64,000 bases of DNA. Origin: a virus. Every line of letters begins with the position of its first letter. Position 1 is the first letter of the stretch. The position numbers and the translations under genes were made by a program. The notes under the pieces are model-generated. The model had not been told where the DNA came from. It did no database searches and worked only from the letters and a program-made list of their open reading frames with translations. Location: positions 21,242-85,241 of the IMG/VR virus record IMGVR_UViG_3300024333_000005; one strand, written 5' to 3'. Positions 1 through 61,216 of this stretch are shown one piece after another.

Positions 1-1146
1 GGGCTGGAGCTGCGCCCGGCGGCAGACGGGACCTACCCCCTGACCGCGAACCTCTGGGGTCGGACCCCGACGCTCAACCCGGAGGCGGTGCGGGCCTGGC
101 GGGGACTCGACCTGGAGTACGCCACGCCGGTCGGCCCGGCCGGGCAGGCGGCGACCTCGGTGCGCCTGCGGCTCTACGACGGGGCGGTCGACCGCTACTG
201 GAACGGGGCGGCCTGGGCGGCGGCCGGGGCGGGCAACTGGAACACCCTGGCCGAGGCCCAGGACCACTTTGCCACCTTCCCCCTGACCAACCGCCGGCTG
301 GCCCTGACCCTGGGGCTGGCGACTACCAACCCGACCCTGACCCCGAGGGTCGCCCGGGCTGCTCTGCTCTACGACGTGGAGCTGGGGAGCGGAGTCGAGG
401 ATGCCGTCCTGCGCACCCTGCTCCGGGCCCTACGGGAACGGCTGCGGCCAGAGGCGGACGTGACCGTCCGCTGGCCCGGGGGCGTGCAGTACAACTTCGG
501 CTCCCTCGACCTGGAGGAACCCCCGGGCAAGGACCGCGCCCCGGTGGCGGCCTACGACCTGACCGCCGATCCCGGGCTCACCACCAACCTGTTCGCCAGC
601 TACGTCGGAGGCATCCTGACCCTGACCGCCGACCCCGGCGCCGGGCACAATGTCCTCCTGCGGGTGGCCTACACCCCCCACGTCGCTCTGGCGACCTCGC
701 CGGACTTCGACGAGGTGGCGGGGCTGCCGGCGATCCTGGGCGAGCGGGTAGCCGAGGTCCTGGTGGGGGAGGGCATTGGCCCGGAGGCCGCGATCCGGCG
801 CTCCGACCACAGCGCCTGGTCCCTGGGCGCCCCCCGCCAGGTCCGCTACGAGGTCGGGTTGCGGGTGGTCGCCTCCCGGCTGCTCGACCTGCTCCGGCTG
901 GGCGAAGCCCTGGAGGCTTCCCTCCGGGCAAGTCCTCTGGTACGCTCTGCGGCGCTCGACGTGCAGTACGCAGTCACCGTCTCCGAACCCCTCTCCCTGG
1001 CGCCCCGCACCGGCGAGGCCCTGGTCCATGAAGGGGGGTTGGCCCTGGCGCTGCGCGGCGTCGAGCTGTGGTACCGGACCCCGGTGGCCGGCGCCGGGGT
1101 CAAGCGCCTGGTGCTCGGCGGAGACCTCGCCGGCGCCATCGAGTAG
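1..1146 (+). CDS. Tail completion/terminator-like structural protein (5' truncated)
   Basis: Frame 1 is open from base 1; lies immediately before the sheath gene; C-terminal 'VRYEVGLRVVASRLLDLLRLGEAL' resembles Pvc16/tail terminator proteins. Confidence 0.55.
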   Translation, partial: GLELRPAADGTYPLTANLWGRTPTLNPEAVRAWRGLDLEYATPVGPAGQAATSVRLRLYDGAVDRYWNGAAWAAAGAGNWNTLAEAQDHFATFPLTNRRLALTLGLATTNPTLTPRVARAALLYDVELGSGVEDAVLRTLLRALRERLRPEADVTVRWPGGVQYNFGSLDLEEPPGKDRAPVAAYDLTADPGLTTNLFASYVGGILTLTADPGAGHNVLLRVAYTPHVALATSPDFDEVAGLPAILGERVAEVLVGEGIGPEAAIRRSDHSAWSLGAPRQVRYEVGLRVVASRLLDLLRLGEALEASLRASPLVRSAALDVQYAVTVSEPLSLAPRTGEALVHEGGLALALRGVELWYRTPVAGAGVKRLVLGGDLAGAIE

Positions 1147-1155
1147 GAGGCCGCG

Positions 1156-3891
1156 ATGGGTGTCACACGGCGGTTCGGTCCGGTTCAGGGCGCAGGCGTG
1201 GCAGTGGTGGAGCGGGAGCCCGAGGAGGGAATCCAGGCGTCCGCCCTGGGCGTGGCGGCCCTGTTCGGCCAGTTCGAGCGGGGGGACGTTTCGACGGTGG
1301 CCTCCCCGAAGCTGAACCGGGTCTCCGGGCTGGCCGGCTTCACCCGCATGCTGGGCGGCCGCATCGCCGCTTCGGTCGCCCCCGACGTGGCGCAGGACTA
1401 CTGGGCCCACGGCGAGGGAGCAGGCGAGCTGGTCTGCGTGCGCCTGACCGACGGGAGCGAGCTGACCGCCGAGCTGACCCTCTTCAACCGGAAGTGGGGC
1501 ACCGACTGGCATGCCCCGGCCTCTGCCAAGGGCAACGAGGCCCAGCTCAAGCGGGCGGTCCTGAAGGTGACCGCCCGCAACGCCGGGGCCTGGGGCGGCA
1601 AGCGGCGGACGCTCTGCGGCGAGTTCGGGGGCGGCGAGCTGACCGAGACCACCCTGGCGACCGGCCAGACCCTCAAGGTGAACGAGCTGGCCGGCGCCAC
1701 CCTGGCCCTGGGTGGCGTCGCCTTCCGCACCTACGAGGTCCTGTCCAATACCGCCGCCGGCGTGGCCACGGTCAAGGCCGGCGCGACCATGGTAACCGAC
1801 CTCGGGCTGTCGGCCGACAAGGAGTGGCGCATCACCCTGGACAACGGCATCGCCGTGGCCGGGGGGCGCAAGGCCCTGGGGGTCAAGGTGGTCGGCGCGG
1901 AGGTCGAGCCCACCCTCAACTTCGGGCTGGAGGTCTACCTCGACGGGGTCCTGACCGACCGCTACCCGACCCTCTCGATGGACCCGGCGAGCCAGTACTA
2001 CGTCGAGAAGGTGCTGGCGGCCGACGACGACGCCCTGATCGCCGTCAACGACCTCTGGAAGCTGACCGGGGAGCCGGTCGAGCCGGACACCCGGCCGGCG
2101 AACTTCCACGGCCGCCTGACCGCGGTGGACGCCACCACGGCCACGGTCGAGTGCGTGCAGGCCATCCAGGTCGACTCGGCCAACGTTCGCCTGGTCGCCG
2201 TGCGCTACCCGGCCGCCCCGGCCCTGGTCCCGCACCGGCTCACCTTCACCTGGGTCCTGGCGGACACGAAGTACACGGTGGCGGCGGCCGCCCTGGCCCG
2301 GCCGGGCGTGATCCTGACCGACCTCCCCGACTTCACCGTGGGGGCCGGCGAACAGCTCGGCAAGGACTACGACCCGGGCTACCCCTTCACCGTGGGGCTG
2401 CGCCTGGACCACGCCGCCTCTCCGGTCAACGGCACGAAGATCATCCTCGACGCGCTGCCCCTGGACGCCGCGGCCATCGCCGGCGGCGAGCTGGTCCCCA
2501 ACGCGGCGAACCCCTACCGCAAGCTGCGCGTCCGGTCCGCCACCCACCGGGTCCTGACCGTCGAGTCCGGGGACCCCTCGGTGCTCGGGACCGGCTCCAC
2601 GGCGGGCGCGGTCACCGGCACCATCGCCGAGCCCTACGCCATCGTGGTCGGGGTCAACGACGCGATGCGCATCGCGGTGGACGGCCGCAAGACCGTCGCC
2701 GTGATCCTGGCGCCCGACGCGGCGAAGACGGCCGCCGCGGTCGCCCTCGACATCAACGCCGCCTTCGACGCCATCTTCCCGGCCGGGACCCTGCACCCGG
2801 CCACGGCGGTCGCCGGCCGGGTGGTCCTGACCTCGCCCGGCGGCTTCTCCGCCGGCGGCCCGGCGTCGACCGTGGAGCTGGTCGACGCGCCCCAGAACGC
2901 CTACGCCACCCTCGGCATGGCGGTGGGGCTGGTCCGGGGCACGGCCGGGTCGGAGGCCGACGTGGGGTGGCTGGACGAGCCGGCGAACGGCTTCGACGGC
3001 GGGACGCCCGCCGACCAGAAGTACCTCGACGCCCTGTCCCTCGCCGACACCCCGCTCCGCCAGCTCGCGGACCAGGGCAAGGGCGTGATCCAGTTCGCCT
3101 GCCCCGGGACCACCGCGACCGCCGTGCAGAAGCAGATGATCGCCCTGGCCGAGGGGATGAACTACTACGCCCACCTGCTGCTCCCGGCCGCCACGACCAC
3201 CGAGCAGGCGGCGGTCGACCTGATCAACACCACCATCGGGCGGAGCGACTTCGCCGCCACCTACTTCCCGAGCTACGGCTACGTCAACGACCCCGACCGG
3301 GACGGGGTGCTCAAGCTGATCCCCCTGGTCGGCATGGTCCTGGGGCGGGACGCCCTCTACGCCCGCCGCTACGGGGGCTACCACCGGCCGGCGGCCGGGA
3401 TCGACGCCACCCTGCCCCGGGTGGTCAAGCTCCCCACCGGGGACACGGTGCTCAACGAGGAGATCCTGAACCCCCAGGGTCTCAATGTGGTCAAGAAGCT
3501 CCGGGGCAACTTCGTGCTCTGGGGCGCCCGGGGCCTGGCGAAGACCTCCGCCTTCCGCTTCCGGGCGCACCGGCTCCAGCTCTCCCACTACGAGTGGGTC
3601 TTCCGCGGGGCCTTCGACTGGGTGATCTTCCTGCTCAACACCGCCGCCCTCTGGGCGCAGCTCGTCTCCGCCTTCAAGGGCTACTTCGCCAGCGAGTTCG
3701 CCAAGGGCGCGGTCTACGGCGTCGACCTGGACGACGCGGTGACGGTCAAGATCGACGCCGAGAACAACCCGCCCGCCAGCATGGCGGCCGGGGACCTGAA
3801 CGCCGAGATCGGGCTGCGGCTGCCCGACGTGGTGGAGCGGTTCGTCGTCACCGTCGGCAAGCGGGGCGTCTACGAGGGCGTCTCCGCCTAG
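1156..3891 (+). CDS. Tail sheath protein (911 aa, with large insertions)
   Basis: GGAGG RBS; N-term 'GVAVVERE..ALFGQFERG', 'ARNAGAWG'; C-term 'AATYFP', 'LNPQGLNVV', 'VLWGAR' sheath motifs. Confidence 0.93.
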   Translation: MGVTRRFGPVQGAGVAVVEREPEEGIQASALGVAALFGQFERGDVSTVASPKLNRVSGLAGFTRMLGGRIAASVAPDVAQDYWAHGEGAGELVCVRLTDGSELTAELTLFNRKWGTDWHAPASAKGNEAQLKRAVLKVTARNAGAWGGKRRTLCGEFGGGELTETTLATGQTLKVNELAGATLALGGVAFRTYEVLSNTAAGVATVKAGATMVTDLGLSADKEWRITLDNGIAVAGGRKALGVKVVGAEVEPTLNFGLEVYLDGVLTDRYPTLSMDPASQYYVEKVLAADDDALIAVNDLWKLTGEPVEPDTRPANFHGRLTAVDATTATVECVQAIQVDSANVRLVAVRYPAAPALVPHRLTFTWVLADTKYTVAAAALARPGVILTDLPDFTVGAGEQLGKDYDPGYPFTVGLRLDHAASPVNGTKIILDALPLDAAAIAGGELVPNAANPYRKLRVRSATHRVLTVESGDPSVLGTGSTAGAVTGTIAEPYAIVVGVNDAMRIAVDGRKTVAVILAPDAAKTAAAVALDINAAFDAIFPAGTLHPATAVAGRVVLTSPGGFSAGGPASTVELVDAPQNAYATLGMAVGLVRGTAGSEADVGWLDEPANGFDGGTPADQKYLDALSLADTPLRQLADQGKGVIQFACPGTTATAVQKQMIALAEGMNYYAHLLLPAATTTEQAAVDLINTTIGRSDFAATYFPSYGYVNDPDRDGVLKLIPLVGMVLGRDALYARRYGGYHRPAAGIDATLPRVVKLPTGDTVLNEEILNPQGLNVVKKLRGNFVLWGARGLAKTSAFRFRAHRLQLSHYEWVFRGAFDWVIFLLNTAALWAQLVSAFKGYFASEFAKGAVYGVDLDDAVTVKIDAENNPPASMAAGDLNAEIGLRLPDVVERFVVTVGKRGVYEGVSA

Positions 3892-14494: not shown

Positions 14495-14503
14495 GAGGTC
14501 CCC

Positions 14504-21092: not shown

Positions 21093-22510
21093 GGCTTGTC
21101 CGCACCGGGACCTGGTGCCAGCTCACCGACCTGGGCGACCGGGAAGCGGTCGCCCGGCTGCTCGACCGGCGCTTCTCCTATCCCGTCGAGGGCCACGTCT
21201 TCGCCCCGGCCTACCGGGCCGGGACCTGGGATGGCCGGGCGCGGCTGGTGCGCCGGCTGCGGGGCGGGGGGCTGGCCTATCCGGCCGGCCTGCACCCGGA
21301 GGTCCTGCGGCTGCTCGCCGCACAGGGCCTGGCCCCCGAGGTCGTCGAGGACTTCCCGCCGGCCGAGCCGGTCGGGCCCTGGGCCTGGGCTGGCCCCGAG
21401 CTGCGGCCCTACCAGGTTGAGGCGGTCGACGCGGTCGTGGCCTACGGCGGCGGCCTGGTCCGGCTCCCGGTGCGCACTGGCAAGACCGCCCTCGCCGCCG
21501 AGCTGATCCGGCGCCTGGGCGTCCGGGCGCTGGTCCTGGTGTCGTCCGACCTGCTCCGGCGGCAGACCATCGCGGTCCTGCGGGAAGCGCTGCCGGGAGC
21601 CCGGGTCGGGGCGGTGGGCGAGGGCGCCTGGGAGGCGGACGGGGACCTGTGCGTCGCCACCCTCCAGAGCCTCTGCCCCCGGCTGCGCACCCGGGACTTC
21701 CGGGCCTTCGCCCGGCGCTGGCCCCTGGTGGTGCTCGACGAGGTCCACCACCTCCAGAGCGAGGGCGACGCCTGGCGCAACGTGGCCCTGGCCCTGGACG
21801 CCCGCTACAAAGTGGGGCTCTCCGCCACCGTCGAGGTCGGGCGCAAGCGGCAGAACGAGACGGGGGCAATCTGGCTGCGCGGGCTCTGCGGCCCGGTGGT
21901 CTACTCCCGGACCCTGTCGGAGATGATCGAGGCCGGCTACCTGGTCCGGCCGACCATCCGCTTCGTCCGTCACGGCGCCCCTCCCCTGGCCGCCCGGCGC
22001 TGGTCGCCGGCGGTCTACCGGGACGGGATCACCGACTGCGCCGAGCGCAACGCCCGCATCGTCGCCGAGGCGGTCGCCTACGCCCGGGAGGGGCGGCGGG
22101 TCCTGGTCGACGTGAGCCGGGTGGGGCACGCCCGCCGGCTGCTGTCCCTCTTGCAGCGAGGCTACGAGGGGACCGTGGCGCTGCTCCTGGGCGCCTCCCC
22201 GGCCGAGGAACGGGCCCGGGTCCTGCGGGCCTGGGCCGCCGGCCGCATTGGGATCGTGGTGGGCACGATCCTGGGCGAGGGCGTCGACGTGCCCGCGTTG
22301 GAGGTCGTGGTCAACGCCGAGGGCGGCAAGGCCCGGACGAGCACCATCCAGCGGCTCCGCAACCTGACCGTTGCCCCGGGGAAACGCGGGGCCGTAGTGG
22401 TCGAGCTGGTCGACGACCATCAGGCGCAGCTCCGGGCCTGGACCCTGGAGCGCCTGCGCATCTACCGGAGCGAGCCGGCCTTCTGCCTCCGGGTGGAGGG
22501 CCGGAGTTGA
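21089..22510 (+). CDS. SF2 DEAD/DEAH-box helicase (UvsW-like)
   Basis: 'WDGR', 'LRPYQ', 'TGKT', 'LDEVHH', 'GLSAT', 'GEGVDVP'; TTG start overlapping the upstream stop. Confidence 0.9.
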   Translation: MRLVRTGTWCQLTDLGDREAVARLLDRRFSYPVEGHVFAPAYRAGTWDGRARLVRRLRGGGLAYPAGLHPEVLRLLAAQGLAPEVVEDFPPAEPVGPWAWAGPELRPYQVEAVDAVVAYGGGLVRLPVRTGKTALAAELIRRLGVRALVLVSSDLLRRQTIAVLREALPGARVGAVGEGAWEADGDLCVATLQSLCPRLRTRDFRAFARRWPLVVLDEVHHLQSEGDAWRNVALALDARYKVGLSATVEVGRKRQNETGAIWLRGLCGPVVYSRTLSEMIEAGYLVRPTIRFVRHGAPPLAARRWSPAVYRDGITDCAERNARIVAEAVAYAREGRRVLVDVSRVGHARRLLSLLQRGYEGTVALLLGASPAEERARVLRAWAAGRIGIVVGTILGEGVDVPALEVVVNAEGGKARTSTIQRLRNLTVAPGKRGAVVVELVDDHQAQLRAWTLERLRIYRSEPAFCLRVEGRS

Positions 22511-22513
22511 ACC

Positions 22514-22684
22514 GCCAGCCGAGGGAGGGTAGGCTGGCATCGACAGCGGCGTCTGCCTCCACCCAGGGCAGGCGCCGTCGGTTCGCCGGGTCGGGCGGCT
22601 GGGGTCCCGGGTCGCTGTCGGGGCGCCATGCCCTCCTTCTCCCCCGGGGTCGCCCCTGGGTGGCCGCCCGACCCGGCGAACCGA
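22514..22684 (+). promoter_or_regulatory. Highly structured intergenic leader before the initiator gene
   Basis: Perfect 22-bp inverted repeat 22578-22599/22663-22684 plus alternative crossing pairings. Confidence 0.55.
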
Positions 22685-22691
22685 ACCGGAG

Positions 22692-23654
22692 ATGGCCATG
22701 CCCCGACCGTTCCGCCTGACGCGGCGCCAGCTTGATGCCCTCGCGGTCCTGGCCGCGCTTGATCCCGCAGACCTCCGGCTCCACCCGGTAGGGAGCCTGG
22801 CCGGGGCCCTGGGAGTCAGTTGCCGACAAGCCTCCTGGCTGCTCTCCGGCCTGGTTCGCCGGGGTCTGGTAGCCCGGACGGGACCGGGAAGCAGGGGTGC
22901 GCAAACGTCGGACATTGTAGGAGATGTCCTTACAAAAGTGGCGTGCACGCCACTTTTGTCGGCACCCCTTGATTTACCTAGCGATTTTCAACTCACTAGC
23001 TTAGCTCTCCCGGAGGGAGAGCTTAGTGCGCGATCCGGGCCCTCCTGCCCTCTTCCCTTCCGGGCTCCCGCGGAGGTCCGGGAGGCGGCCTGCTACGCCG
23101 CCTCCCCGGGCGAGCTGGTGGGAGCCCTCAAGAAGCTCGCCGCCCGGTCGAACTGCCACGTCTCTCCCCGGCAGAACCGGAGGCAGGCCGGAGACCTGGA
23201 CTACCTGGGGGAGCTGTACACCTCCCGGCGGCGCCGGTTGGAGCCGGAGTACAATCCTCCCCCCGGCCTGCGGCGAGACCTGGCAAAGCTCCTGGCCGGC
23301 CTGACGCGGGTCCGCCTGGGGCGGAAGCACTGGCCCCTCTACCTGGACTTCTGCTTCAAGGCGTTCCCCCGGTTCGCGCCCCTGGCCTTCCCTCCGGCGA
23401 GGGCCGTGGCCGGCGAAGCGCTGCTCGACTCCTACCTGGCTTCCCTGGGTCGGCGGAAGCTCGACCTCCGCCGGGCGGCGGCCATGCTGGCCGCCGCCGG
23501 TTACGGCGACCTGCCGGCCTGGGTGGTGGCCGACATGGCCCGGAGCGAGGCGGCCTCCCCCGGGGCCCTGGCCGGCATCGAGGACCGCCGCTTCGCCGAG
23601 GCGGCAGCCTGGCTGCGGGAGCGGCTGGACGAGGTGGGGTACGCCGATGAGTAG
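22692..23654 (+). CDS. Winged-HTH protein, probable replication initiator
   Basis: 'LTRRQLDAL', 'LAGALGVS.RQAS..L..L.RRGLV.R' wHTH; directly upstream of DnaB; internal AT-richer palindromic patch. Confidence 0.65.
   Translation: MAMPRPFRLTRRQLDALAVLAALDPADLRLHPVGSLAGALGVSCRQASWLLSGLVRRGLVARTGPGSRGAQTSDIVGDVLTKVACTPLLSAPLDLPSDFQLTSLALPEGELSARSGPSCPLPFRAPAEVREAACYAASPGELVGALKKLAARSNCHVSPRQNRRQAGDLDYLGELYTSRRRRLEPEYNPPPGLRRDLAKLLAGLTRVRLGRKHWPLYLDFCFKAFPRFAPLAFPPARAVAGEALLDSYLASLGRRKLDLRRAAAMLAAAGYGDLPAWVVADMARSEAASPGALAGIEDRRFAEAAAWLRERLDEVGYADE
22910..23030. repeat. Inverted-repeat cluster including a perfect 28-bp palindrome; candidate replication origin
   Basis: ACAAAAGTGGCGTGCACGCCACTTTTGT at 22932-22959; AGCTCTCCC-GGA-GGGAGAGCT at 23003-23023; locally low GC. 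Confidence 0.65.
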
Positions 23655-26278: not shown

Positions 26279-26357
26279 GGAAAGTGAGTTGCCCTCTCTT
26301 TTCCTGTTGACTTCCCGCAACCCCGCTGCTATGCTTGCTGATGGATAGGAGGTCGCG
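26273..26357 (+). promoter_or_regulatory. Sigma70-type promoter with upstream box and RBS (copy A)
   Basis: TTGACT(26307-26312)-17 nt-TATGCT(26330-26335) with extended -10 TG; AGGAGG RBS. Confidence 0.8.
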
Positions 26358-27281
26358 ATGGCAGAGCGGTTGCGGTTCGGGCGGTTGGAGCTGGCGGTCC
26401 GGGAGGACCTGACCCCGGCGGACGAGTTCCGGGTGCCGGCCTTCGACGAGCAGTACTACCTCGACCCCGTCCGCCTGGAGGACCTGGCGGCTGCGGTGCA
26501 GGTCCGCATCCCCGCCTTCCTCTGCGGGCCGCCCGGCTCCGGCAAGACCAGCGTGGTCCTCCAGCTCGCGGCCCTGCTCAACCAGCCCGCGGTCCGGGTC
26601 AACCTGGGCGGACAGCCCCACGTGGCGGACCTGCTCGGCGAGAAGGCCCTGACCGTCGAGCCGGCCTCCGGGCAGGCGGTCACCGAGTGGCGGGACGGCC
26701 CGGTCACCGAGGCCGTCCGCCGGGGCTGGTGGTTGATCCTGGACGAGTACACCGCCATGCCGCCGAGCGTGACCCTGCGGCTCCAGGGGCTCCTGGAGGT
26801 CGGGGGCTCGCTGGTGCTGGCGGAGAACGGGGGCGAGGTAGTCGAGCCCCACCCGAGCTTCCGCCTGTTCGCCACCGACAACACCACTGGCCGGGGCGAC
26901 GACACCGGCCTCTATCAGGGGACCCAGGCGCAGAACGACGCCAACCTGGACCGCTTCGTGGTCTTCGCCTGCGACTACCCGCCCCCGGCCGAAGAGGCGG
27001 CGATCCTGGTCCGCAAGACGGGCATCCCCGCCAAGGTGGCGAGGATGATGGTGGAGGTTGCGACCCTGGTGCGGTCCGGCATGCAGAAGTCGGAGACCTT
27101 CTGCACCCTCGGGACCCGGCGGCTCCTGGCCTGGGCCAGCTTCGCCGCGGCCTACGCGAACGGCCACGCCTACACCGCCCCCGCGGCCCGGGCCTACCGG
27201 GTCGCGGTCCGGTCGAAGCTCGGGGCGGAGGACGCGGCCTACGTCGACGGGGTGGCGAAGCGGGTGGGGTTCGACCTGTGA
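26358..27281 (+). CDS. MoxR/CbbQ/CobS-family AAA+ ATPase
   Basis: 'GPPGSGKT', 'WRDGP', 'LILDE', 'HPSFRLFATDNT.G.GD', 'LDRF'. Confidence 0.92.
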   Translation: MAERLRFGRLELAVREDLTPADEFRVPAFDEQYYLDPVRLEDLAAAVQVRIPAFLCGPPGSGKTSVVLQLAALLNQPAVRVNLGGQPHVADLLGEKALTVEPASGQAVTEWRDGPVTEAVRRGWWLILDEYTAMPPSVTLRLQGLLEVGGSLVLAENGGEVVEPHPSFRLFATDNTTGRGDDTGLYQGTQAQNDANLDRFVVFACDYPPPAEEAAILVRKTGIPAKVARMMVEVATLVRSGMQKSETFCTLGTRRLLAWASFAAAYANGHAYTAPAARAYRVAVRSKLGAEDAAYVDGVAKRVGFDL

Positions 27282-45943: not shown

Positions 45944-46491
45944 GCCGCGCCTGCCGGGGCCGGCTTCGCTGCGACGGCTGCTGGCGGGCCTGCTCCTACG
46001 CCCGCTTCCGGGGCCGCGTCCCGGTCCCCGGAGGCCCCCGAGATGGCCGACGCCCCCTCCCGCCCTGGCCGCTCTTTGCGGACGAGGGCCGGGCCCAGCA
46101 GCTTCGGCTCACCGAAGCCATAGCCGAGGGCCGAGGGAAGGGCGCCACGCGCCGCACCATCCTGGGGGCCCTGCGCCGGGCCAAGCTCGATGCCTGGGAA
46201 CGGGCCCTGGCGGCCTGCCCCCGGCGCGGCGAGGCCCTCCCGCGCACCACCGAGGAAGCCCTGGAGCTGGCCTTCGCCCTCCCCGCGGTCGAGTTCCGCC
46301 AGCGCTTCCTTGGCTGGACCCCGGCCCGGGCCCGGGCCCGGCGCCAGGCGCTCTCCCTGGCCGAGTTCGCAACCTGGTGGCGGAAGGCTGGGGCCCAACC
46401 CGAGCTTCCCTTCCGGCCCCCCGACCCCGACCTCGACCCCGACGAGAGCCCCTGGAAGTACCTGCTCGACCGGGAGGAGGGCCTGGCATGA
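45940..46491 (+). CDS. Hypothetical protein with N-terminal Cys cluster
   Basis: GTGA-coupled ORF. Confidence 0.6.
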   Translation: MSRACRGRLRCDGCWRACSYARFRGRVPVPGGPRDGRRPLPPWPLFADEGRAQQLRLTEAIAEGRGKGATRRTILGALRRAKLDAWERALAACPRRGEALPRTTEEALELAFALPAVEFRQRFLGWTPARARARRQALSLAEFATWWRKAGAQPELPFRPPDPDLDPDESPWKYLLDREEGLA

Positions 46492-55391: not shown

Positions 55392-55700
55392 ATGGCGAAC
55401 CCGAAGGGCTGGGTGAGCAACACCTTCAACCCCGACGAGGTGGCCGCGCTCTGTGCCCTCTTCGCCGCCCTCGACCGGCGAGACCTGGGAGAAGCCCGGG
55501 ACCTGGCGGCGGGCCCGGTCGGCCGCCACCTGCTCGCCCGCTTCCTGCGGATGCGGGAGCGGACCCGGGCCGGGTGTGCCAAGGCCGGCCGTCCCGGCCC
55601 CTGGACGCCACCAGGGGCTCGGCAAGCCCCCGGGGCGGCCCGGAGGCCGGCCCCCCTTCCCTGTCGAGCCCCTGGTGCCCCCTGGGAGGCCCCCCCATGA
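55392..55700 (+). CDS. Hypothetical protein
   Basis: GGAG RBS; C-terminus runs through a dispersed repeat. Confidence 0.55.
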   Translation: MANPKGWVSNTFNPDEVAALCALFAALDRRDLGEARDLAAGPVGRHLLARFLRMRERTRAGCAKAGRPGPWTPPGARQAPGAARRPAPLPCRAPGAPWEAPP

Positions 55701-56038
55701 ACCGGACGGACGAGTACCTGGTCAAGAGCATCCGCCGGATCGCCCGGATGGCCGGCCGGCTGGACGACCCCTCGGTTGTGGCCTTCGCCGCGCTGTGGGA
55801 GGGGGAGGCCCGCCTGATCCTCGTCCTGGTCGCCGGCTCCAGGCCGCGGGCCTGGGCCGCCCTCACCTGGCGGTGGGTGGCCGAGGCGGTGCGGCGCCTG
55901 GCGAGCAGGCTCTACTGGCGCTGGTCGGACCTGCGGGGCCGGACCTGGGTGGACGCCGATGGCCTGCGGCACTCGGCCGCCTGCCCGGGCGCCTGCGACG
56001 CGGAACCCTGTCTCCTGCCTGGGGAGGAAGCGCAGTGA
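55697..56038 (+). CDS. Hypothetical protein
   Basis: GGAGG RBS; ATGA coupling. Confidence 0.6.
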   Translation: MNRTDEYLVKSIRRIARMAGRLDDPSVVAFAALWEGEARLILVLVAGSRPRAWAALTWRWVAEAVRRLASRLYWRWSDLRGRTWVDADGLRHSAACPGACDAEPCLLPGEEAQ

Positions 56039-56322
56039 CCGGGTGGACGGCGGTGGCCCTGGCGGCCCTCCTGGTCGGCGCCACCCTCGGCTACCTGGCA
56101 GGATGGGTGGCGGGCCACCAAGCGGCCCGACGAGCTGCCCGCCGGGCGGGAGCCGCGGCGCTGCTCCCTGCCCCCGACGCCCACCTGGGGCACCTGTTCC
56201 TCGACCTGGATGCCGCCTCCTACCGGCTGCGGCGGCACCTGCGGGCCTGCCGCCGCTGCCGGGAGGCCCTGCCGGCGGTGCTGGCGGCTCGCCAGCGGGC
56301 GGGGCGCAGCGGGCTCAACTAG
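56035..56322 (+). CDS. Small membrane protein
   Basis: N-terminal TM 'WTAVALAALLVGATLGYLAGWVAG'; H...CxxC. Confidence 0.6.
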   Translation: MTGWTAVALAALLVGATLGYLAGWVAGHQAARRAARRAGAAALLPAPDAHLGHLFLDLDAASYRLRRHLRACRRCREALPAVLAARQRAGRSGLN

Positions 56323-56409
56323 CGCAAGTGCCTGGGGTTTCCGGCCGCGGCACTACTTCGCCTCTCCTGCGCAGCGAGGGGCGCGGCTGCCGCTGGCGCT
56401 GTCGTCCGC

Positions 56410-56438
56410 TTGACGCCGGGGGGAGGGGGCAATAGGAT
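56410..56438 (+). promoter_or_regulatory. Sigma70-type promoter facing a non-coding region
   Basis: TTGACG(56410-56415)-17 nt-TAGGAT(56433-56438). Confidence 0.65.
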
Positions 56439-56444
56439 CGGCCC

Positions 56445-56650
56445 TGCGTGGAGCGGTGACCCTTGCGGGGTTGCCCCTTCCGGTGGCTCTCCCCCTCCCG
56501 CCGTGGCTGCGGAGGGAGGGGGGCTGCCGTCGCGAGCGAGACCTTGCCCGGGCGAAGCCTATGCGGGAATGGCGCTCGGGTGGGGTCTGGGAGATCCTAC
56601 TAGGTCCCCGACGCGGCGAAGGCCAGGCAGAGCGCCTGGCCTTCGCCTGC
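56445..56650 (+). ncRNA. Putative structured small RNA
   Basis: Stems at 56455-56475 and 56482-56528 with several G-U pairs valid only on +; ends in a 14-bp perfect hairpin. Confidence 0.55.
56615..56647. terminator. Strong hairpin between convergent transcripts
   Basis: GGCGAAGGCCAGGC-AGAGC-GCCTGGCCTTCGCC; no U-tract. Confidence 0.55.
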
Positions 56651-56669
56651 CGGCCCGGTGGGCCTGCGG

Positions 56670-57512
56670 CTACGCCGCCGCCGCCGCCTCCGCCGCCGCC
56701 TCCAAGCTCCCCTGCCCGGCGAGCAGGTACCACCCGGCCGGCACCGACCCGGTCGCCCCGACCTCGACCACCGTCCGCTTCCCGCCCGGGGTGCGGATCG
56801 TGCCCTCGCTGATCACCGGCTGGACCGCGTCGCTGGCGGTGATCTCCCGGGCCGCGGTGATCGTCCGCTTCTCGCTCACCTTCCGCCGGAGGGCCTTCGG
56901 GCCGGTCCCCTTGCCGAGGCGCAGGGTGATGGTGTGCCAGTCGGGCCACGGCTGGGCGGTGCGGGCGTGCGGGCTCTCGCACCAGACCTGCCCGACCTGG
57001 GCGGACGCCTCGCCCCCGGCCCGCTCCCGGGCCAGCTTGCAGAGGGCCCGGCGGCAGTCGCTCCCCTTGGGCTGCTCGACGCCCTCCGCCCGGGCCGCCA
57101 GCCGCGACGCCTCGGTCTTGAGCCGGTTGATCGACTCCAGCTTCGCCTTGAGGGCCGCCGCCGGGTCCGCCGGCTTGCGGACCAGGGTGGCCTTCGGGGC
57201 CGGCGCCGACTCGGGCTCGGTCGCCCCGGCCGCCAGGGCCGCCCGGGCCTCCGCCAGCGGCTCGCTCGGCTTGGCCTCCGGCTCGGTGGCCGGGGCCGGG
57301 GGCTCGGCCGCGGGCGCCGGGGCGGCGGGCGCCGCGAGCGCCTTGCGGGCCGCCTTCACCGCCTTGGCCTTCTCGGCCGGGGCCGGCGCCGCCGGCTCGG
57401 CCGCGGGCGCCGCCTCCGGCGCCGCCTCGGGCTCCTTGGCCGCGAACGTCTTGCGGGCCTTCTCGGCCCCCTTCCCGCCCTGCTCCGGCTTCCGGTTGAT
57501 CTTCAGTGCCAT
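56670..57512 (-). CDS. Lys/Ala/Pro-rich protein with globular C-terminal domain (possible early/host-takeover protein)
   Basis: AAGGAG RBS; in the minus-strand operon under promoter copy B. Confidence 0.75.
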   Translation of the reverse strand: MALKINRKPEQGGKGAEKARKTFAAKEPEAAPEAAPAAEPAAPAPAEKAKAVKAARKALAAPAAPAPAAEPPAPATEPEAKPSEPLAEARAALAAGATEPESAPAPKATLVRKPADPAAALKAKLESINRLKTEASRLAARAEGVEQPKGSDCRRALCKLARERAGGEASAQVGQVWCESPHARTAQPWPDWHTITLRLGKGTGPKALRRKVSEKRTITAAREITASDAVQPVISEGTIRTPGGKRTVVEVGATGSVPAGWYLLAGQGSLEAAAEAAAAA

Positions 57513-57534
57513 CGTCGTTCTCCTTCCTCGGGCT

Positions 57535-58092
57535 CTAGGCCCGGCTGCTCCAGCGCTCGATCATCTCGGGGGTCCGCATATCCAGGGTGCAGACCTCCCC
57601 GCTCTCGGCCGCCTCCCGCATGCCCCGGGCGGTGTCCTCGTCCAGGCCGATCAGGCCCCGGCTGTGCGCCCCCTCGAAGGTCCAGGGGACCGGCAGCTCG
57701 ACGTAGGGCGACTCGCCCGGCTTCCGGCGGGTCGCCAGGTAGGCCCCGCCGAGCCGGCGCTTGCCGCACCCCCGGGGCAGCTCCAGGGCGGCGTCGACGA
57801 TCACCTGGAGCTTCAGGCCCTCGATCACCGGGGCCTCCAGGGTGGCGGCGCCGCTCTCGCCGGCGATGAACTCGACGTACAGGGGGTCGAAGTACCCGGC
57901 GATGATGCCCGGGTGGTAGGCCCCGCCGGCCGCCGCCGCGCCGAAGACGCACCAGACCCGGCTCTTGCCGGGCTCCAGGCCCTTCGGCAGGGGCAGCCGG
58001 ACCCGCCGGCTCACGCCCTGCTCCCGGGCCTCCGCGGCGAAGCTCTCGGGGGTGTAGTGCGAGCCCCCGACGTGGATCAGGTAGTCGCTCAT
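57535..58092 (-). CDS. Hypothetical protein
   Basis: AGGAGG RBS; 'YTPESF..EA...GVSRR', 'RGCG.R..GG.Y'. Confidence 0.75.
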   Translation of the reverse strand: MSDYLIHVGGSHYTPESFAAEAREQGVSRRVRLPLPKGLEPGKSRVWCVFGAAAAGGAYHPGIIAGYFDPLYVEFIAGESGAATLEAPVIEGLKLQVIVDAALELPRGCGKRRLGGAYLATRRKPGESPYVELPVPWTFEGAHSRGLIGLDEDTARGMREAAESGEVCTLDMRTPEMIERWSSRA

Positions 58093-58295
58093 CGGGTCCT
58101 CCTTGCCGCGCCCGCCTGCCCGTGGTCCACCTCGTCCGTCACGTCCTCCGGGCCGTCGGGCGTCTCCCGGTAGGCCCGGGCCTGGAGGCCCTGGGCCCGG
58201 GCTTGCCGCAAGCTGCGGGCCGCGGCCGTCTTGGTCCTGAGCCCCTCTTCCCAGGCCGTGTGCCCGGGTGCCCGAACGGTGTAGGTGATCCTCAT
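58089..58295 (-). CDS. Small hypothetical protein
   Basis: AAGGAGG RBS before ATG at 58295; frame is also open upstream to about 58403. Confidence 0.6.
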   Translation of the reverse strand: MRITYTVRAPGHTAWEEGLRTKTAAARSLRQARAQGLQARAYRETPDGPEDVTDEVDHGQAGAARRTR

Positions 58296-58402
58296 CTCGC
58301 CCTCCTTGCCGCGCCCACCTGCCGGCCTATCCGGCAGGGCCACCGACTCGACGGTGGTGCCCGGGCCCTCGCCCGGGCCGCACGACCGGCACCCGCTCGC
58401 CA

Positions 58403-58633
58403 CTACAGCCCCGCCTCCGCCGCGAGCAGGGCCAGGTCCTCCAGGGGCAGGACCCACCGGGCCTCGTCCCGGACGGCCGCCGGGGCGCAGGCGAACGACA
58501 GCTCGTCCAGCTCCACTTCGCACGCCTCGCAGACGACCCGGCAGCGCCGCGCCTCCCCCGGGCGGTAGGCGACCCGCCCCAGGATCTCGCCACATCGCTC
58601 ACACCGGACCAGCTCGCTCGTCTTGTTTGCCAT
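58403..58633 (-). CDS. Small Cys4 zinc-binding protein, first gene of the minus-strand operon
   Basis: TAAGGAGG RBS; CERC...CEAC. Confidence 0.7.
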   Translation of the reverse strand: MANKTSELVRCERCGEILGRVAYRPGEARRCRVVCEACEVELDELSFACAPAAVRDEARWVLPLEDLALLAAEAGL

Positions 58634-58730
58634 CGCTCTTCCTCCTTACATCAACAAGCATAGGCGTGGCGAAGCGGGAAATCAACGAAAAAAGAGAAGC
58701 CGAGGGGCGCCTCGTTCACTTTTCCTGCAA
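58634..58730 (-). promoter_or_regulatory. Sigma70-type promoter with upstream box (copy B)
   Basis: On minus: TTGATT(58685-58680)-17 nt-TATGCT(58662-58657); closely similar to copy A at 26273-26357. Confidence 0.8.
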
Positions 58731-59707: not shown

Positions 59708-59791
59708 TCCCTGGCCCTCGTCCTCGCCCGCCACCCCGCCCCTAGCCCTCGACTGCCGCCGGCCCTGGGCGCCCCTGCCCGCGGCCGGCGG

Positions 59792-61216
59792 TTGTCCCCC
59801 CGCCCCCGCCCGTCCCCGGCCGCTCGGGCCGACCTGCTCCGCCGCCTGGAGGAGGCGAAGGCCCTGCGCCGAGAGTGGCTGCGCCGGCAGATTCTGGAGC
59901 GGGACCGAATCGACCTGCTCGCCAGCGAAGTCCTCGGCTACGAGGTCCGCCCGCACCACCTGGACCTGCTCCAGCATCAGCACCGCTTCCCGGACCGCAA
60001 CCTCGCCCTGGCCTGGCGGGGAGCCGGCAAGACCACCGTCCGCACCGTCTGCCGGGCGATCTTCCTCCTGCTCAAGAACCCGAACGCCCGCATCCTCCTG
60101 GCTTCCAAGTCGAGCCTGAACGCCGCGGCCATGCTGGCCGAGATCAAGGGCCGCCTGACCTCGCCGGCCTTCGAGGAGGTCTTCGGGGTCTGGCAGGGGC
60201 CGAAGTGGGACGACATCGCCATCCAGGTCCGGCCCCGGACCTCCGGCGCCAAGGAACCGAGCGTCGGAGTGGTGGGCGCCGAGTCCAGCATCGTCTCCCT
60301 GCACTGGGACGCCCTGCTGGTGGACGACCTGGTGGACGAGGAGAACGCCCGCACCCCGACCCTGCGCAACCGGCTCCAGACGCTCTTCTACAAGGCCCTG
60401 CTCCCGACCCTGGTACCGGGCGGTGAGCTGTCCCTCTGCGGGACCCGCTACCACCACCTCGACCTCTACGGCCACCTGGCCGAGAACGAGATGGCGGGCC
60501 CCCGGACCCTGGTGGTCCCCGGCCTGCGGGGGAGCGACGAGCAGGGCTGGGAGGCGGTCTGGCCGGAGCGCTTCTCGGTGGAGCACCTGCTCGCCCTGCG
60601 CAGAAGCATGGGGAGCATCCTCTGGGACTCGCAGTACCTCTGCTCGACTCGCAAGATGGCCGGCGGCGGCTTCGTCGACTTCGAGTGGTGCCAGCGGGTC
60701 GCGGCCACCGAGGTGCCCGCCGACGCGCCCCGCTTCCTGGGCGCCGACCTGGCGATCAGCATGGCGCCCGGGGCCGACCGCTTCGCCGTTGTCGTCGAAG
60801 CATGGGACTCGACCTCCGACCGGCGCTGGGTGGTCGACGGCTACGCCGGCCGCCGGCCGCCGCACGAGCAGCGGCGGATCATCGCCGACCACTACCGGCG
60901 GCACCGCTGCGTGCGGGGGTGCATCGAGAGCAACGCCTACCAGGCGGCGCTCATCTCCGACCTGCGCCGGGAACAGCCCGACCTGGTCCTGGTCCCCTCC
61001 CACACCGGCGCCGCCAAGGAGGCGCGGATGCTCGCCCTGGCCGCGGCCCACGAGGACCTGCGGGTCTTCTACGCCGAGGGGCTGGACTGGCTCGTCGAGG
61101 AAATGGTGCTCTTCCCGACCGGCGCTCACGACGACGGGTTCGACGCCCTGGACCTGGCCCACCGGGCGACCCGCTACCGGCAGCGGAAGGCCCGCCGGGA
61201 AGTCGGCTTGCTCTAG
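59792..61216 (+). CDS. terL: Terminase large subunit
   Basis: 'RGAGKTT', 'LLVDDLVDE', 'GTRYH..DLYG', 'WPERF', 'GADLA', 'HDD..DAL'. Confidence 0.95.
   Translation: MSPRPRPSPAARADLLRRLEEAKALRREWLRRQILERDRIDLLASEVLGYEVRPHHLDLLQHQHRFPDRNLALAWRGAGKTTVRTVCRAIFLLLKNPNARILLASKSSLNAAAMLAEIKGRLTSPAFEEVFGVWQGPKWDDIAIQVRPRTSGAKEPSVGVVGAESSIVSLHWDALLVDDLVDEENARTPTLRNRLQTLFYKALLPTLVPGGELSLCGTRYHHLDLYGHLAENEMAGPRTLVVPGLRGSDEQGWEAVWPERFSVEHLLALRRSMGSILWDSQYLCSTRKMAGGGFVDFEWCQRVAATEVPADAPRFLGADLAISMAPGADRFAVVVEAWDSTSDRRWVVDGYAGRRPPHEQRRIIADHYRRHRCVRGCIESNAYQAALISDLRREQPDLVLVPSHTGAAKEARMLALAAAHEDLRVFYAEGLDWLVEEMVLFPTGAHDDGFDALDLAHRATRYRQRKARREVGLL

What the first reader, a model, noticed from the sequence alone, without database searches (positions are those of the whole stretch)
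56410..56660. Candidate novel phage small RNA with its own sigma70 promoter
Seen: TTGACG-17-TAGGAT points into about 220 nt with no credible ORF. Stem 1 (GGUGACCC/GGGUUGCC, 56455-56475) and stem 2 (17 bp with four G-U pairs, 56482-56528) both open with GGUG paired to UGCC, giving tandem U-G/G-U wobbles that work only on the + strand. A 14-bp perfect hairpin closes the unit just before the convergent gene's stop. It does not look like tRNA or another family I recognise. Inference: an independently transcribed structured RNA, such as a protein decoy, antitoxin-like/anti-defence RNA or regulator of the opposing operon.
Basis: partly seen in the sequence, partly recalled or inferred. Interest (0 to 1): 0.7.

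Follow-up and report, generated by a model that had tools for sequence, protein, structure and literature searches.

The report
Orphan candidate small RNA in phage
A gap between two converging gene groups in an uncultivated, very GC-rich lake phage holds a good promoter, about 200 bases with no gene that would fold well as RNA, and a strong end hairpin, so it is a reasonable but unproven small-RNA gene with no known relatives.

Summary
The 347-nt gap 56323-56669 has no coding signal. TTGACG-17-TAGGAT at 56410-56438 is one of only two TTGAC-N16-18-TANNNT sites in the 85-kb record (expected 0.08 per 64 kb). The + strand from 56440 to 56660 folds at -139.7 kcal/mol, z -4.35, 0 of 200 shuffles.

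Without the end hairpin the core folds better than shuffles only on the + strand (z -3.08 against -0.88). The 14-bp hairpin sits 22 nt past the stop of the minus-strand gene, so it is first that operon's terminator, probably working in both directions.

The interpretation stays untested. There is no Rfam or tRNA match, no homologue in any collection I could reach, no sequence variants and no RNA reads. Four of 100 control windows in this phage also reach z <= -3.

Best reading (0.45): a sigma70-driven, roughly 205-nt structured RNA ending at the shared terminator. This is an ordinary kind of element, a candidate phage small RNA with no relatives. Interest is low to moderate.

The parts
56410..56438 (+). 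Sigma70-type promoter TTGACG-17-TAGGAT. The predicted start is near G56446.
   Evidence: It is the only promoter-like site in 55800-57200. It is one of 2 TTGAC-N16-18-TANNNT sites in the 64-kb window, against 0.08 expected, and in the whole 85-kb record. The start position is inferred from the usual 6-8 nt spacing after the -10 box.
56446..56650 (+). Predicted non-coding RNA of about 205 nt. Both ends are inferred, not observed.
   Evidence: There is no coding phase. The fold of 56440-56660 has z -4.35. The core 56446-56612 has z -3.08 on + and -0.88 on -. There is no Rfam or tRNA match.
56455..56475 (+). Stem 1: 9 bp, 3 of them G-U pairs, with a UGC loop.
   Evidence: -12.9 kcal/mol, z -2.10 (7 of 200 shuffles). 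On the - strand z is -0.10.
56481..56529 (+). Stem 2: 20 bp in three segments (7+9+4), 3 of them G-U pairs. The core is a C-tract (CUCCCCCUCCC) paired with a G-tract.
   Evidence: -38.5 kcal/mol, z -3.59 (2 of 200). It also folds on the - strand, z -3.19. Low-complexity tracts may inflate z.
56539..56588 (+). Stem 3: 16 bp, 4 of them G-U pairs, with an 18-nt apical region.
   Evidence: -30.9 kcal/mol, z -4.35 (0 of 200). On the - strand it gives -18.0, z -1.80.
56589..56609 (+). Stem 4, a weak 7-bp hairpin.
   Evidence: -8.7 kcal/mol, z -1.07 (32 of 200). It is not significant on its own.
56615..56647 (.). Perfect 14-bp hairpin with a 5-nt loop and no U-tract on either side. It is the likely terminator of the - operon and probably stops transcription in both directions.
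   Evidence: z -6.30 on both strands. It is the second-longest perfect hairpin among the 17 loci with stems of 10 bp or more in the 85-kb record. It lies 22 nt past the - gene's stop. The longest hairpin (15 bp) lies at the same 22-nt spacing after another gene's stop. The U-tract terminator scan found 0 sites here.
56030..56322 (+). Last gene of the long + strand (replication/recombination) gene run, with stop codon TAG at 56320-56322. The start is approximate.
   Evidence: Codon-phase G+C and the ORF list. No significant hairpin lies between its stop and the promoter: 56323-56409 has z +0.70 and 56323-56358 has z -1.32.
56670..57512 (-). Convergent 280-aa gene with an Ala/Pro/Lys-rich N-terminal half. 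It has no relatives outside this phage.
   Evidence: Third-position G+C is 1.0. There is no Pfam or PHROG hit. The 5.8-billion-protein search found only its own cluster.
57535..58092 (-). 185-aa gene of the same - operon. The predicted fold is PUA-like (ASCH/EVE/YTH group).
   Evidence: The library of 1.84 billion cluster representatives gave at least 150 hits at E <= 0.001, the best non-self one 49% identical. The AlphaFold2 model has pLDDT 91.3. VIA-align gave ZmASCH Z 9.1, McrB-N Z 8.0, THYN1 Z 7.5 and YTH domains Z 6-7.
58657..58685 (-). Promoter of the - operon, TTGATT-17-TATGCT. It shares an extended motif with the promoter at 26307-26335 (+).
   Evidence: TTGAYTTCCCGC-N11-TATGCT occurs twice, against 0.05 expected. 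It lies 24 nt upstream of the ATG at 58633, which has an AAGGAGG ribosome-binding site.

Best explanation
The gap holds an independent, non-coding transcription unit. Host sigma70 RNA polymerase starts at the TTGACG-17-TAGGAT promoter, near 56446. It makes a roughly 205-nt RNA that folds into three solid hairpins and one weak one. The RNA ends at the 14-bp hairpin 56615-56647, which is also the terminator of the converging minus-strand operon.

No convincing terminator lies between the upstream + operon's stop (56322) and the promoter. The same structured stretch is therefore probably also the 3' untranslated tail of that operon, as in small RNAs that have their own promoter but share an mRNA's terminator.

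The most likely action is local. The RNA and the 3' end of the opposing operon's mRNA are complementary across the shared hairpin, and across the whole RNA if the opposing transcript reads through. Transcription from this promoter also runs head-on against the opposing operon. The RNA would therefore damp or sharpen expression of the minus-strand cassette. A trans-acting or protein-binding role is not excluded.

Shown: the promoter match and its rarity, the lack of coding signal, strand-specific excess folding, and the position of the hairpin. Inferred: that the promoter fires, both RNA ends, and the whole mode of action.
For: - **Promoter rarity and placement.** There are 2 sites in 85 kb against 0.08 expected per 64 kb. 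Both are intergenic and on the + strand.
- **The phage uses this promoter type.** A third sigma70-like site at 58685-58657 sits correctly in front of the minus operon, and the site at 26307 sits 29 nt in front of the gene 26364-27281.
- **No coding phase** in the gap.
- **Folding.** z is -4.35 (0 of 200) for 56440-56660 on the + strand. The core without the palindrome gives z -3.08 on + against -0.88 on -.
- **Strand-specific pairs.** By my count from the dot-bracket folds, 10 of the 45 pairs in stems 1-3 are G-U. These pairs can form only in the + transcript.
- **Sharp boundaries.** Excess structure starts right after the promoter and stops at the hairpin. The 87 nt upstream (56323-56409) fold no better than shuffles, z +0.70.
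- **The hairpin is exceptional** in this genome and is placed like the other long hairpin, 22 nt after a stop codon.
Against: - There is no evidence of transcription of any kind.
- No homologue or variant was found, so covariation has not been tested.
- Four of 100 control windows in this phage, some of them coding, also reach z <= -3.
- Stem 2 is a C-tract paired with a G-tract. Such pairing is easy to get by chance and is broken up by shuffling, so its z may be inflated.
- The hairpin has no U-tract on either side. Termination in the + direction is therefore assumed, not shown.
- The closest relative by terminase (L003, 48% identity) has the same + genes / minus cassette / packaging layout, but its convergent gap is only 30 nt. 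The element is not a conserved feature of that layout.
- The host is unknown, so the promoter consensus I applied is an assumption.
Confidence: 0.45

Rival explanations
1. The region is a cluster of 3'-end structures with no separate RNA gene. It would be the shared untranslated tail of the two converging operons. The 14-bp hairpin would terminate and stabilise both mRNAs, and the upstream stems would act as extra pause, stability or insulation elements for the + operon's read-through transcript. The promoter-like hexamers would be fortuitous, or would give only low-level interfering transcription.
For: No significant terminator lies between the + operon's stop and the gap's structures, so the + operon's mRNA should contain them anyway. 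The hairpin is spaced 22 nt from the - gene's stop, exactly as the 15-bp hairpin is after the gene at 14123-15325 of the record. That other gap also folds at z -2.79.
Against: The promoter match is very unlikely by chance in a 347-nt gap. The expected number is 0.08 per 64 kb, which scales to about 4e-4 for this gap by my arithmetic. The site is on the strand and at the position that an RNA gene needs. The excess structure begins only after the promoter, and the 87 nt before it have z +0.70.
Confidence: 0.25
2. Apart from the terminator hairpin, nothing functional is here. Stems 1-4 would be the folding that 75% G+C spacer DNA with G- and C-tracts gives by chance, and the promoter match would be an accident.
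For: Four of 100 control windows reach z <= -3. Stem 4 is not significant and stem 1 only weakly so. No conservation could be shown. The nearest relative lacks the gap.
Against: The rare promoter, the absence of an ORF, strand-specific folding (z -3.08 against -0.88) and the sharp boundaries coincide. Stem 3 alone has z -4.35, with 0 of 200 shuffles as good. A 347-nt gap is long for this densely packed genome.
Confidence: 0.2
3. The region is a DNA-level site such as a packaging site, replication origin, attachment site or protein-binding array. The inverted repeats would be read as double-stranded or extruded DNA.
For: It lies between the replication and packaging modules, about 2.2 kb upstream of the packaging genes. 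It is rich in inverted repeats.
Against: Stems 1 and 3 depend on G-U pairs and fold no better than, or little better than, shuffles on the other strand. That points to single-stranded RNA of one polarity. The 85-kb record has no tyrosine-integrase or resolvase domain, although it is only 82% complete. There are no direct-repeat arrays.
Confidence: 0.06
4. The promoter serves a small protein gene. The candidates are the 46-aa TTG ORF 56463..56603 and the GTG ORF from 56456.
For: Both ORFs exist. GGAG lies just upstream of the GTG at 56456.
Against: G+C in their third-position phases is 0.74-0.82, against 0.9 or more in every confident gene. The GGAG-to-GTG spacing is only 2 nt. The 118-aa ORF would run 140 nt into the converging gene.
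Confidence: 0.03

Closest known systems
Small RNAs with their own promoter that share the terminator of the upstream mRNA (type I 3'UTR-derived sRNAs such as DapZ or MicL; recalled, not checked in a paper here)
   Same: A promoter sits at or after the end of a coding region. There is no ORF. The RNA ends at the terminator that also serves the upstream operon. The structured body lies just 5' of the terminator hairpin.
   Different: Those RNAs are Hfq-dependent base-pairing regulators of enterobacteria with U-tailed terminators and known seed regions. Here no seed, no U-tail, no host and no expression data are known.
Lambda oop RNA and similar phage cis-antisense RNAs (recalled)
   Same: A short phage RNA with its own promoter, aimed against a converging gene, could lower that gene's expression through RNA duplex formation.
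   Different: As recalled, oop overlaps the 3' end of the cII coding region. Here the predicted RNA stops 22 nt short of the converging stop codon unless it reads through the hairpin. It is also about 205 nt long and far more structured than oop as I recall it.
Bidirectional intrinsic terminators between convergent genes (recalled: Ju et al. 2019, not read here)
   Same: A single perfect palindromic hairpin in a convergent gap folds equally on both strands (z -6.30 each).
   Different: The described examples have U/A tracts on both sides. This one has none.
Phage-encoded RNA mimics of CRISPR RNAs: viral sgRNAs (bioRxiv 10.64898/2026.06.01.729453; abstract and outline seen) and RNA anti-CRISPRs (recalled)
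   Same: These are compact, promoter-driven, hairpin-rich phage RNAs without an ORF that end in terminator hairpins.
   Different: Membership needs a match to the host's CRISPR repeat or tracrRNA, and for viral sgRNAs a guide. The only CRISPR-related Rfam hit is 15.2 bits against a threshold of 35, E 4.3. The host is unknown, so no repeat can be compared.

Membership tests
Any Rfam 15 family (4227 models) | Score at or above the family's gathering threshold | tested here: not met
   There were 0 matches in the whole window at gathering thresholds and 0 in the first 21.5 kb of the record. With permissive filters on 56250-56750, the best hits were miRNA-hairpin models at 14-20 bits against thresholds of 66-87, with E 0.9-5.6.
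tRNA / tmRNA | Cloverleaf or tmRNA detected by ARAGORN | tested here: not met
   0 genes in the window.
Independent bacterial/phage sRNA gene | Own promoter on the RNA's strand | tested here: met
   TTGACG-17-TAGGAT at 56410-56438. There are 2 such sites in 85 kb against 0.08 expected per 64 kb. This is a sequence match only. Activity was not tested.
Independent bacterial/phage sRNA gene | No protein-coding potential | tested here: met
   No codon phase exceeds 0.82 G+C in the gap, against 0.9-1.0 in genes.
Independent bacterial/phage sRNA gene | Intrinsic terminator (hairpin plus U-tract) at the 3' end | tested here: inconclusive
   A strong 14-bp hairpin is present, but there is no U-tract and the consensus scan found 0 terminator-like sites. 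The phage's other long hairpin, after a gene's stop, also lacks a U-run in the sequence printed.
Independent bacterial/phage sRNA gene | A discrete transcript is observed | not testable with these tools
   I had no RNA reads for this phage. See Tried and rejected.
Structured functional RNA | Structure conserved with compensatory changes in relatives | not testable with these tools
   No homologue was found. The covariance model R1 matched only itself (188.9 bits) among the window, the rest of the record and 112 fetched loci. The best other match was 19.5 bits, with stem 3 deleted, lying within the 141-aa ORF 912..1337. The laid contigs were identical.
Structured functional RNA | Folding energy better than dinucleotide shuffles, on one strand | tested here: met
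   z -4.35 for the whole unit. The core has z -3.08 on + and -0.88 on -. Note that 4 of 100 control windows reach z <= -3.
Cis-antisense RNA of the oop type | Overlap with the converging gene's coding region | tested here: not met
   If the RNA ends at the hairpin (56647-56650), it stops 22 nt before the stop codon at 56670-56672. Overlap would need read-through.
Type III toxin-antitoxin RNA (ToxI-like) | Tandem direct repeats upstream of a toxin gene on the same strand | tested here: not met
   No tandem repeat family occurs in 56300-56700. The next gene on the + strand starts at about 58851.
Riboswitch / leader | Lies in the 5' untranslated region of a downstream gene on the same strand | tested here: not met
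   What follows on the + strand is the antisense of the minus-strand operon 56670-58633.
RNA anti-CRISPR / viral sgRNA | Sequence and structure match to a host CRISPR repeat or tracrRNA | tested here: inconclusive
   The CRISPR-DR24 hit is 15.2 bits against a threshold of 35, E 4.3. The host and its repeats are unknown.
PUA-like fold (ASCH/EVE/YTH) for the neighbouring 185-aa protein | Structural similarity across the domain | tested here: met
   The model has pLDDT 91.3. The top 22 VIA-align rows are ASCH, EVE/THYN1, McrB-N or YTH domains or related structural-genomics proteins, with Z 9.1 to 5.2 and 101-133 aligned residues. Foldseek was weak (E 0.03). There is no Pfam hit. Only the fold is shown. 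Ligand and function are unknown.

The most novel reading that the evidence does not exclude
The RNA belongs to a new class of structured phage RNA that works through a protein rather than by base pairing. It could be a decoy or sponge for a host defence or RNA-binding factor. It could also be the partner of the PUA-like (ASCH/EVE/YTH-fold) protein encoded in the converging cassette. In the second case the promoter-RNA-terminator unit and the relative-less cassette would form one RNA-protein module.
Probability: 0.1. Interest if true: 0.65.

Novelty: new member of a known kind. Interest (0 to 1): 0.3.

Why it matters
Phage-encoded small RNAs are a growing but still thinly sampled class, and almost all known ones come from cultured phages of a few hosts. 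If this candidate is real, it comes from an uncultivated phage of about 75% G+C and belongs to no described RNA family. Its layout, in which a promoter, a structured RNA and a shared U-less terminator face a cassette with no relatives, would give a clean case for studying how converging phage transcription units are kept apart or coupled.

As it stands, it is one well-formed prediction without expression or conservation data. Its practical value is as an entry on a list for metatranscriptome checks.

Tried and rejected
Homologue collection failed by every route.
- blastn of 55500-58200 against 50,697 phage records gave no match.
- The gap occurs once in its own record.
- IMG/VR scans with four flanking proteins gave no relatives. 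A degenerate DNA pattern for the 185-aa gene gave 0 stretches.
- The 185-aa and 280-aa proteins match only their own clusters among 5.8 billion proteins.
- The full HMMER search found a family for the 185-aa protein. Its 28 IMG/VR loci are 51% identical or less over short segments and 35% over most of the protein. They share no neighbours and have no RNA match.
- 73 IMG/VR loci and 11 GTDB loci related by terminase (48% or less) lack the cassette and the RNA.
- Two metagenome scans and one genome scan aimed at the 49%-identical relative P0003 found nothing.
- A near-identical variant phage exists: P0154 has 2 of 280 residues changed and sits on an ENA contig of 85,384 nt.

Expression and variants. 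No RNA holder was listed among the 14 runs returned. Four runs kept as contigs were laid. Where they covered the stretch they showed no differing letters. X10 record 1 covers 55600-56628 with 0 differences. X11 to X13 had little or no cover of the gap itself. No variant information came from this.

Host. The best cultured-phage terminase matches are 33% identical or less and have mixed hosts. The MAG relatives come from many phyla. I make no host call.

Target search. blastn-short of the RNA against the 85-kb record gave only 10-20-nt matches at E >= 0.003, mostly to the hairpin arms. No target is proposed.

A resemblance between the stem-3 loop and the TTCCCGC promoter spacer was checked and dropped. 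ATTCCCGC occurs 2 times against 1.66 expected, and TTTCCCGC once against 1.98.

The ESM Atlas gave nothing usable for the 280-aa protein.

Earlier notes of this scan showed no look-alike stretches elsewhere.

Literature. One search was made and only its listing was seen. For one preprint I saw the abstract and outline only. Supplementary files were not opened. All other named comparators are recalled.

Full report
Context. The window is the last 64 kb of an 85,241-bp IMG/VR virus record that CheckV rates 82% complete, with no terminal repeats found. Its G+C is 72-78% throughout. Apart from nine runs that may be its own source, one further run and study (X10, labelled lake water metagenome) holds 0.97 of the sampled words of 55600-57600.

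Genes run on the + strand from the start of the window to 56322. They include a tail protein, helicases, a DnaB-like protein, an SbcC-like protein and a ComM/Mg-chelatase-like ATPase. A four-gene cassette lies on the - strand at 56670-58633. From about 58851 the packaging module runs on the + strand, with the large terminase at 59777-61216 and phrog_38 at E 8e-66. The finding sits in the 347-nt convergent gap 56323-56669.

The observation. The hexamers TTGACG-17-TAGGAT are the only promoter-like site in 55800-57200. TTGAC-N16-18-TANNNT occurs only twice in the window and in the whole record, at 26307 and 56410. The expected number is 0.08 per 64 kb, and 0 of 100 shuffles gave two. Both sites are intergenic and on the + strand.

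A relaxed search added one more site, TTGATT-17-TATGCT, on the - strand at 58685-58657. It lies 24 nt upstream of the first ATG of the minus cassette. It shares the extended motif TTGAYTTCCCGC-N11-TATGCT with the 26307 site (2 matches against 0.05 expected). The phage therefore plainly carries sigma70-type promoters in front of real genes, which makes the third site credible.

The gap has no coding signal. Confident genes have 0.9-1.0 G+C in one codon phase, and the gap never exceeds 0.82.

Folding. The + strand 56440-56660 folds at -139.7 kcal/mol against -118.6 +/- 4.9 for 200 dinucleotide shuffles, z -4.35, with none as good. The - strand gives z -2.72.

Taken apart:

| Element | Coordinates | + strand z | - strand z |
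|---|---|---|---|
| Stem 1 | 56455-56475 | -2.10 | -0.10 |
| Stem 2 | 56481-56529 | -3.59 | -3.19 |
| Stem 4 | 56589-56609 | -1.07 | not folded |
| Palindromic hairpin | 56615-56647 | -6.30 | -6.30 |

Stem 3 has 16 bp with four G-U pairs. Without the palindrome, the core 56446-56612 has z -3.08 (2 of 200) on the + strand and -0.88 (34 of 200) on the - strand. By my count from the folds, ten of the 45 pairs in stems 1-3 are G-U.

The 87 nt between the upstream stop codon and the promoter fold no better than shuffles, z +0.70. The excess structure is therefore bounded by the promoter on one side and the hairpin on the other.

As a control I tiled 100 windows of 221 nt over the whole window. Mean z was -0.47 and sd 1.06. 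Four windows reached -3 or lower, one being this region and one the leader at 22500. None reached -4. The region is in the top few per cent of this genome, but it is not unique. Stem 2's z may also be flattered, because it pairs a C-tract with a G-tract.

The hairpin. Among all perfect hairpins of 10 bp or more with loops of 3-9 nt in the 85-kb record (17 loci), this 14-bp one is second only to a 15-bp hairpin at 15348-15386 of the record. That hairpin begins 22 nt after the stop of a 400-aa gene with third-position G+C of 0.99. The 14-bp hairpin ends 22 nt before the stop codon of the minus-strand 280-aa gene, which is the same spacing seen from that gene's side.

I therefore read it first as the terminator or 3' stabiliser of the minus cassette. 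That cassette then has its own promoter, a ribosome-binding site, four genes and a terminator. The + strand RNA would use the same palindrome from the other side. Neither hairpin is followed by a U-run in the sequence seen, and the consensus terminator scan of 55800-57200 found none. Termination is therefore inferred.

What it is not. There is no Rfam family at gathering thresholds anywhere in the record. Only hairpin-noise hits at E 0.9-5.6 appeared with permissive filters. There is no tRNA or tmRNA and no tandem repeats. No same-strand downstream gene exists that would make it a leader. The record has no tyrosine-integrase or resolvase domain that would suggest an attachment site. The small ORFs in the gap lack the coding signature.

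Conservation could not be tested. The gap, the two genes downstream of it and two tested upstream genes have no relatives in IMG/VR. The phage collection gave no match. The two minus-strand proteins match only themselves in the 5.8-billion-protein collection.

The 185-aa protein does belong to a wider uncharacterised family: at least 150 cluster representatives at E <= 0.001, the best 49% identical. The 28 IMG/VR loci that carry it share no neighbours with this phage and hold no RNA match. The 49% relative could not be located in the metagenome or genome collections.

A covariance model of 56446-56612 built from the single sequence found only itself (188.9 bits). I searched the window, the rest of the record and 112 loci, about 1.4 Mb in all. 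The next best match was 19.5 bits, deleted stem 3 and lay within the 141-aa ORF 912..1337.

The closest relative by terminase (L003, 48% identity) has the same + genes / minus cassette / packaging order, but its convergent gap is only 30 nt. The element is therefore not a fixed feature of that layout.

Mechanism. The best-supported reading is an independent sigma70-driven RNA of about 205 nt (56446 to about 56650) that shares a bidirectional terminator with the converging cassette. It probably also forms the tail of read-through transcripts from the upstream operon.

Given the geometry, I think local action on the opposing cassette is the most likely function. This could work through complementarity of the overlapping 3' ends, or of the whole RNA if the minus transcript reads through. 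It could also work through head-on transcriptional interference. I give the existence of the RNA about 0.45-0.5 and this mode of action less than half of that.

The main rivals are as follows:
- a passive cluster of 3'-end structures with a fortuitous promoter (0.25)
- chance folding apart from the terminator (0.2)
- a DNA-level site (0.06)
- a small protein (0.03)

Side result. The 185-aa protein of the converging cassette is predicted with high confidence (pLDDT 91.3). It has a PUA-like barrel closest to ASCH, EVE/THYN1, McrB-N and YTH domains: Z 9.1 to about 6 over 101-133 residues, and the top 22 rows are consistent. Foldseek was only weakly supportive. From the titles of the matched entries, several of these domains bind modified bases in RNA or DNA. 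This allows, but does not support, the bolder idea that the RNA and the cassette form one RNA-protein module.

Verdict. The kind of element, a phage small RNA or 3'-end RNA with its own promoter, is already known, and this instance has no relatives. Interest is low to moderate.

Noticed in passing
window 26307-26335 (+) and 58657-58685 (-): Two promoters share an extended motif, TTGAYTTCCCGC-N11-TATGCT (2 matches against 0.05 expected). Each is correctly placed, one before the AAA/CbbQ-like gene 26364-27281 and one before the minus cassette. A CTTTTCCTG word also precedes a TTGACT at both 26298 and 58720. This may be a phage-specific promoter class or a regulator site.
   Followed up: partly
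window 57535-58092 (-): A 185-aa protein with no Pfam or PHROG hit belongs to a family of at least 150 cluster representatives. In many of them the domain is the C-terminal part of a 250-600-aa protein. The predicted fold is PUA-like (ASCH/EVE/YTH), with invariant G9, Y13, E21, G26, G66, R107, G110 and Y118 in a 40-sequence alignment.
   Followed up: partly
L115 (G000:C1) 15348-15386: The longest perfect hairpin of the record (15 bp, 9-nt loop, no U-tract) lies 22 nt after the stop of a 400-aa gene with third-position G+C of 0.99. It opens a 326-nt gap that folds at z -2.79. It is probably the terminator of a highly expressed structural gene.
   Followed up: partly
window 56670-58685 (-): The minus-strand cassette looks like a self-contained inserted unit: its own promoter, a ribosome-binding site, four genes (a 76-aa CxxC...CxxC protein, a protein of about 68 aa, the 185-aa PUA-like protein and a 280-aa Ala/Pro/Lys-rich protein) and a terminator hairpin. 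Of the two gene products searched in the 5.8-billion-protein collection (185 aa and 280 aa), each matched only its own cluster. A variant of the 280-aa protein with 2 changes near the C-terminus exists on another contig (P0154).
   Followed up: partly
window 46343-46361 (+): A 19-nt stretch matches the top and loop of the terminator hairpin in the opposite orientation with 1 mismatch. Only 0.04 matches of this quality are expected by chance, the hairpin's own included. It lies inside a coding region and its meaning is unknown.
   Followed up: partly
window 56628-56707: In run X10 the assembled contigs break between 56628 and 56707, at the hairpin and the GCC-repeat that encodes the poly-Ala C-terminus of the 280-aa protein. 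The tool reported skipped repeats at 56659-56706. This looks like an assembly effect, not biology.
   Followed up: no
window 22500-22720 (+): A control window over the leader of the replication-initiator region folded at z -3.12.
   Followed up: no
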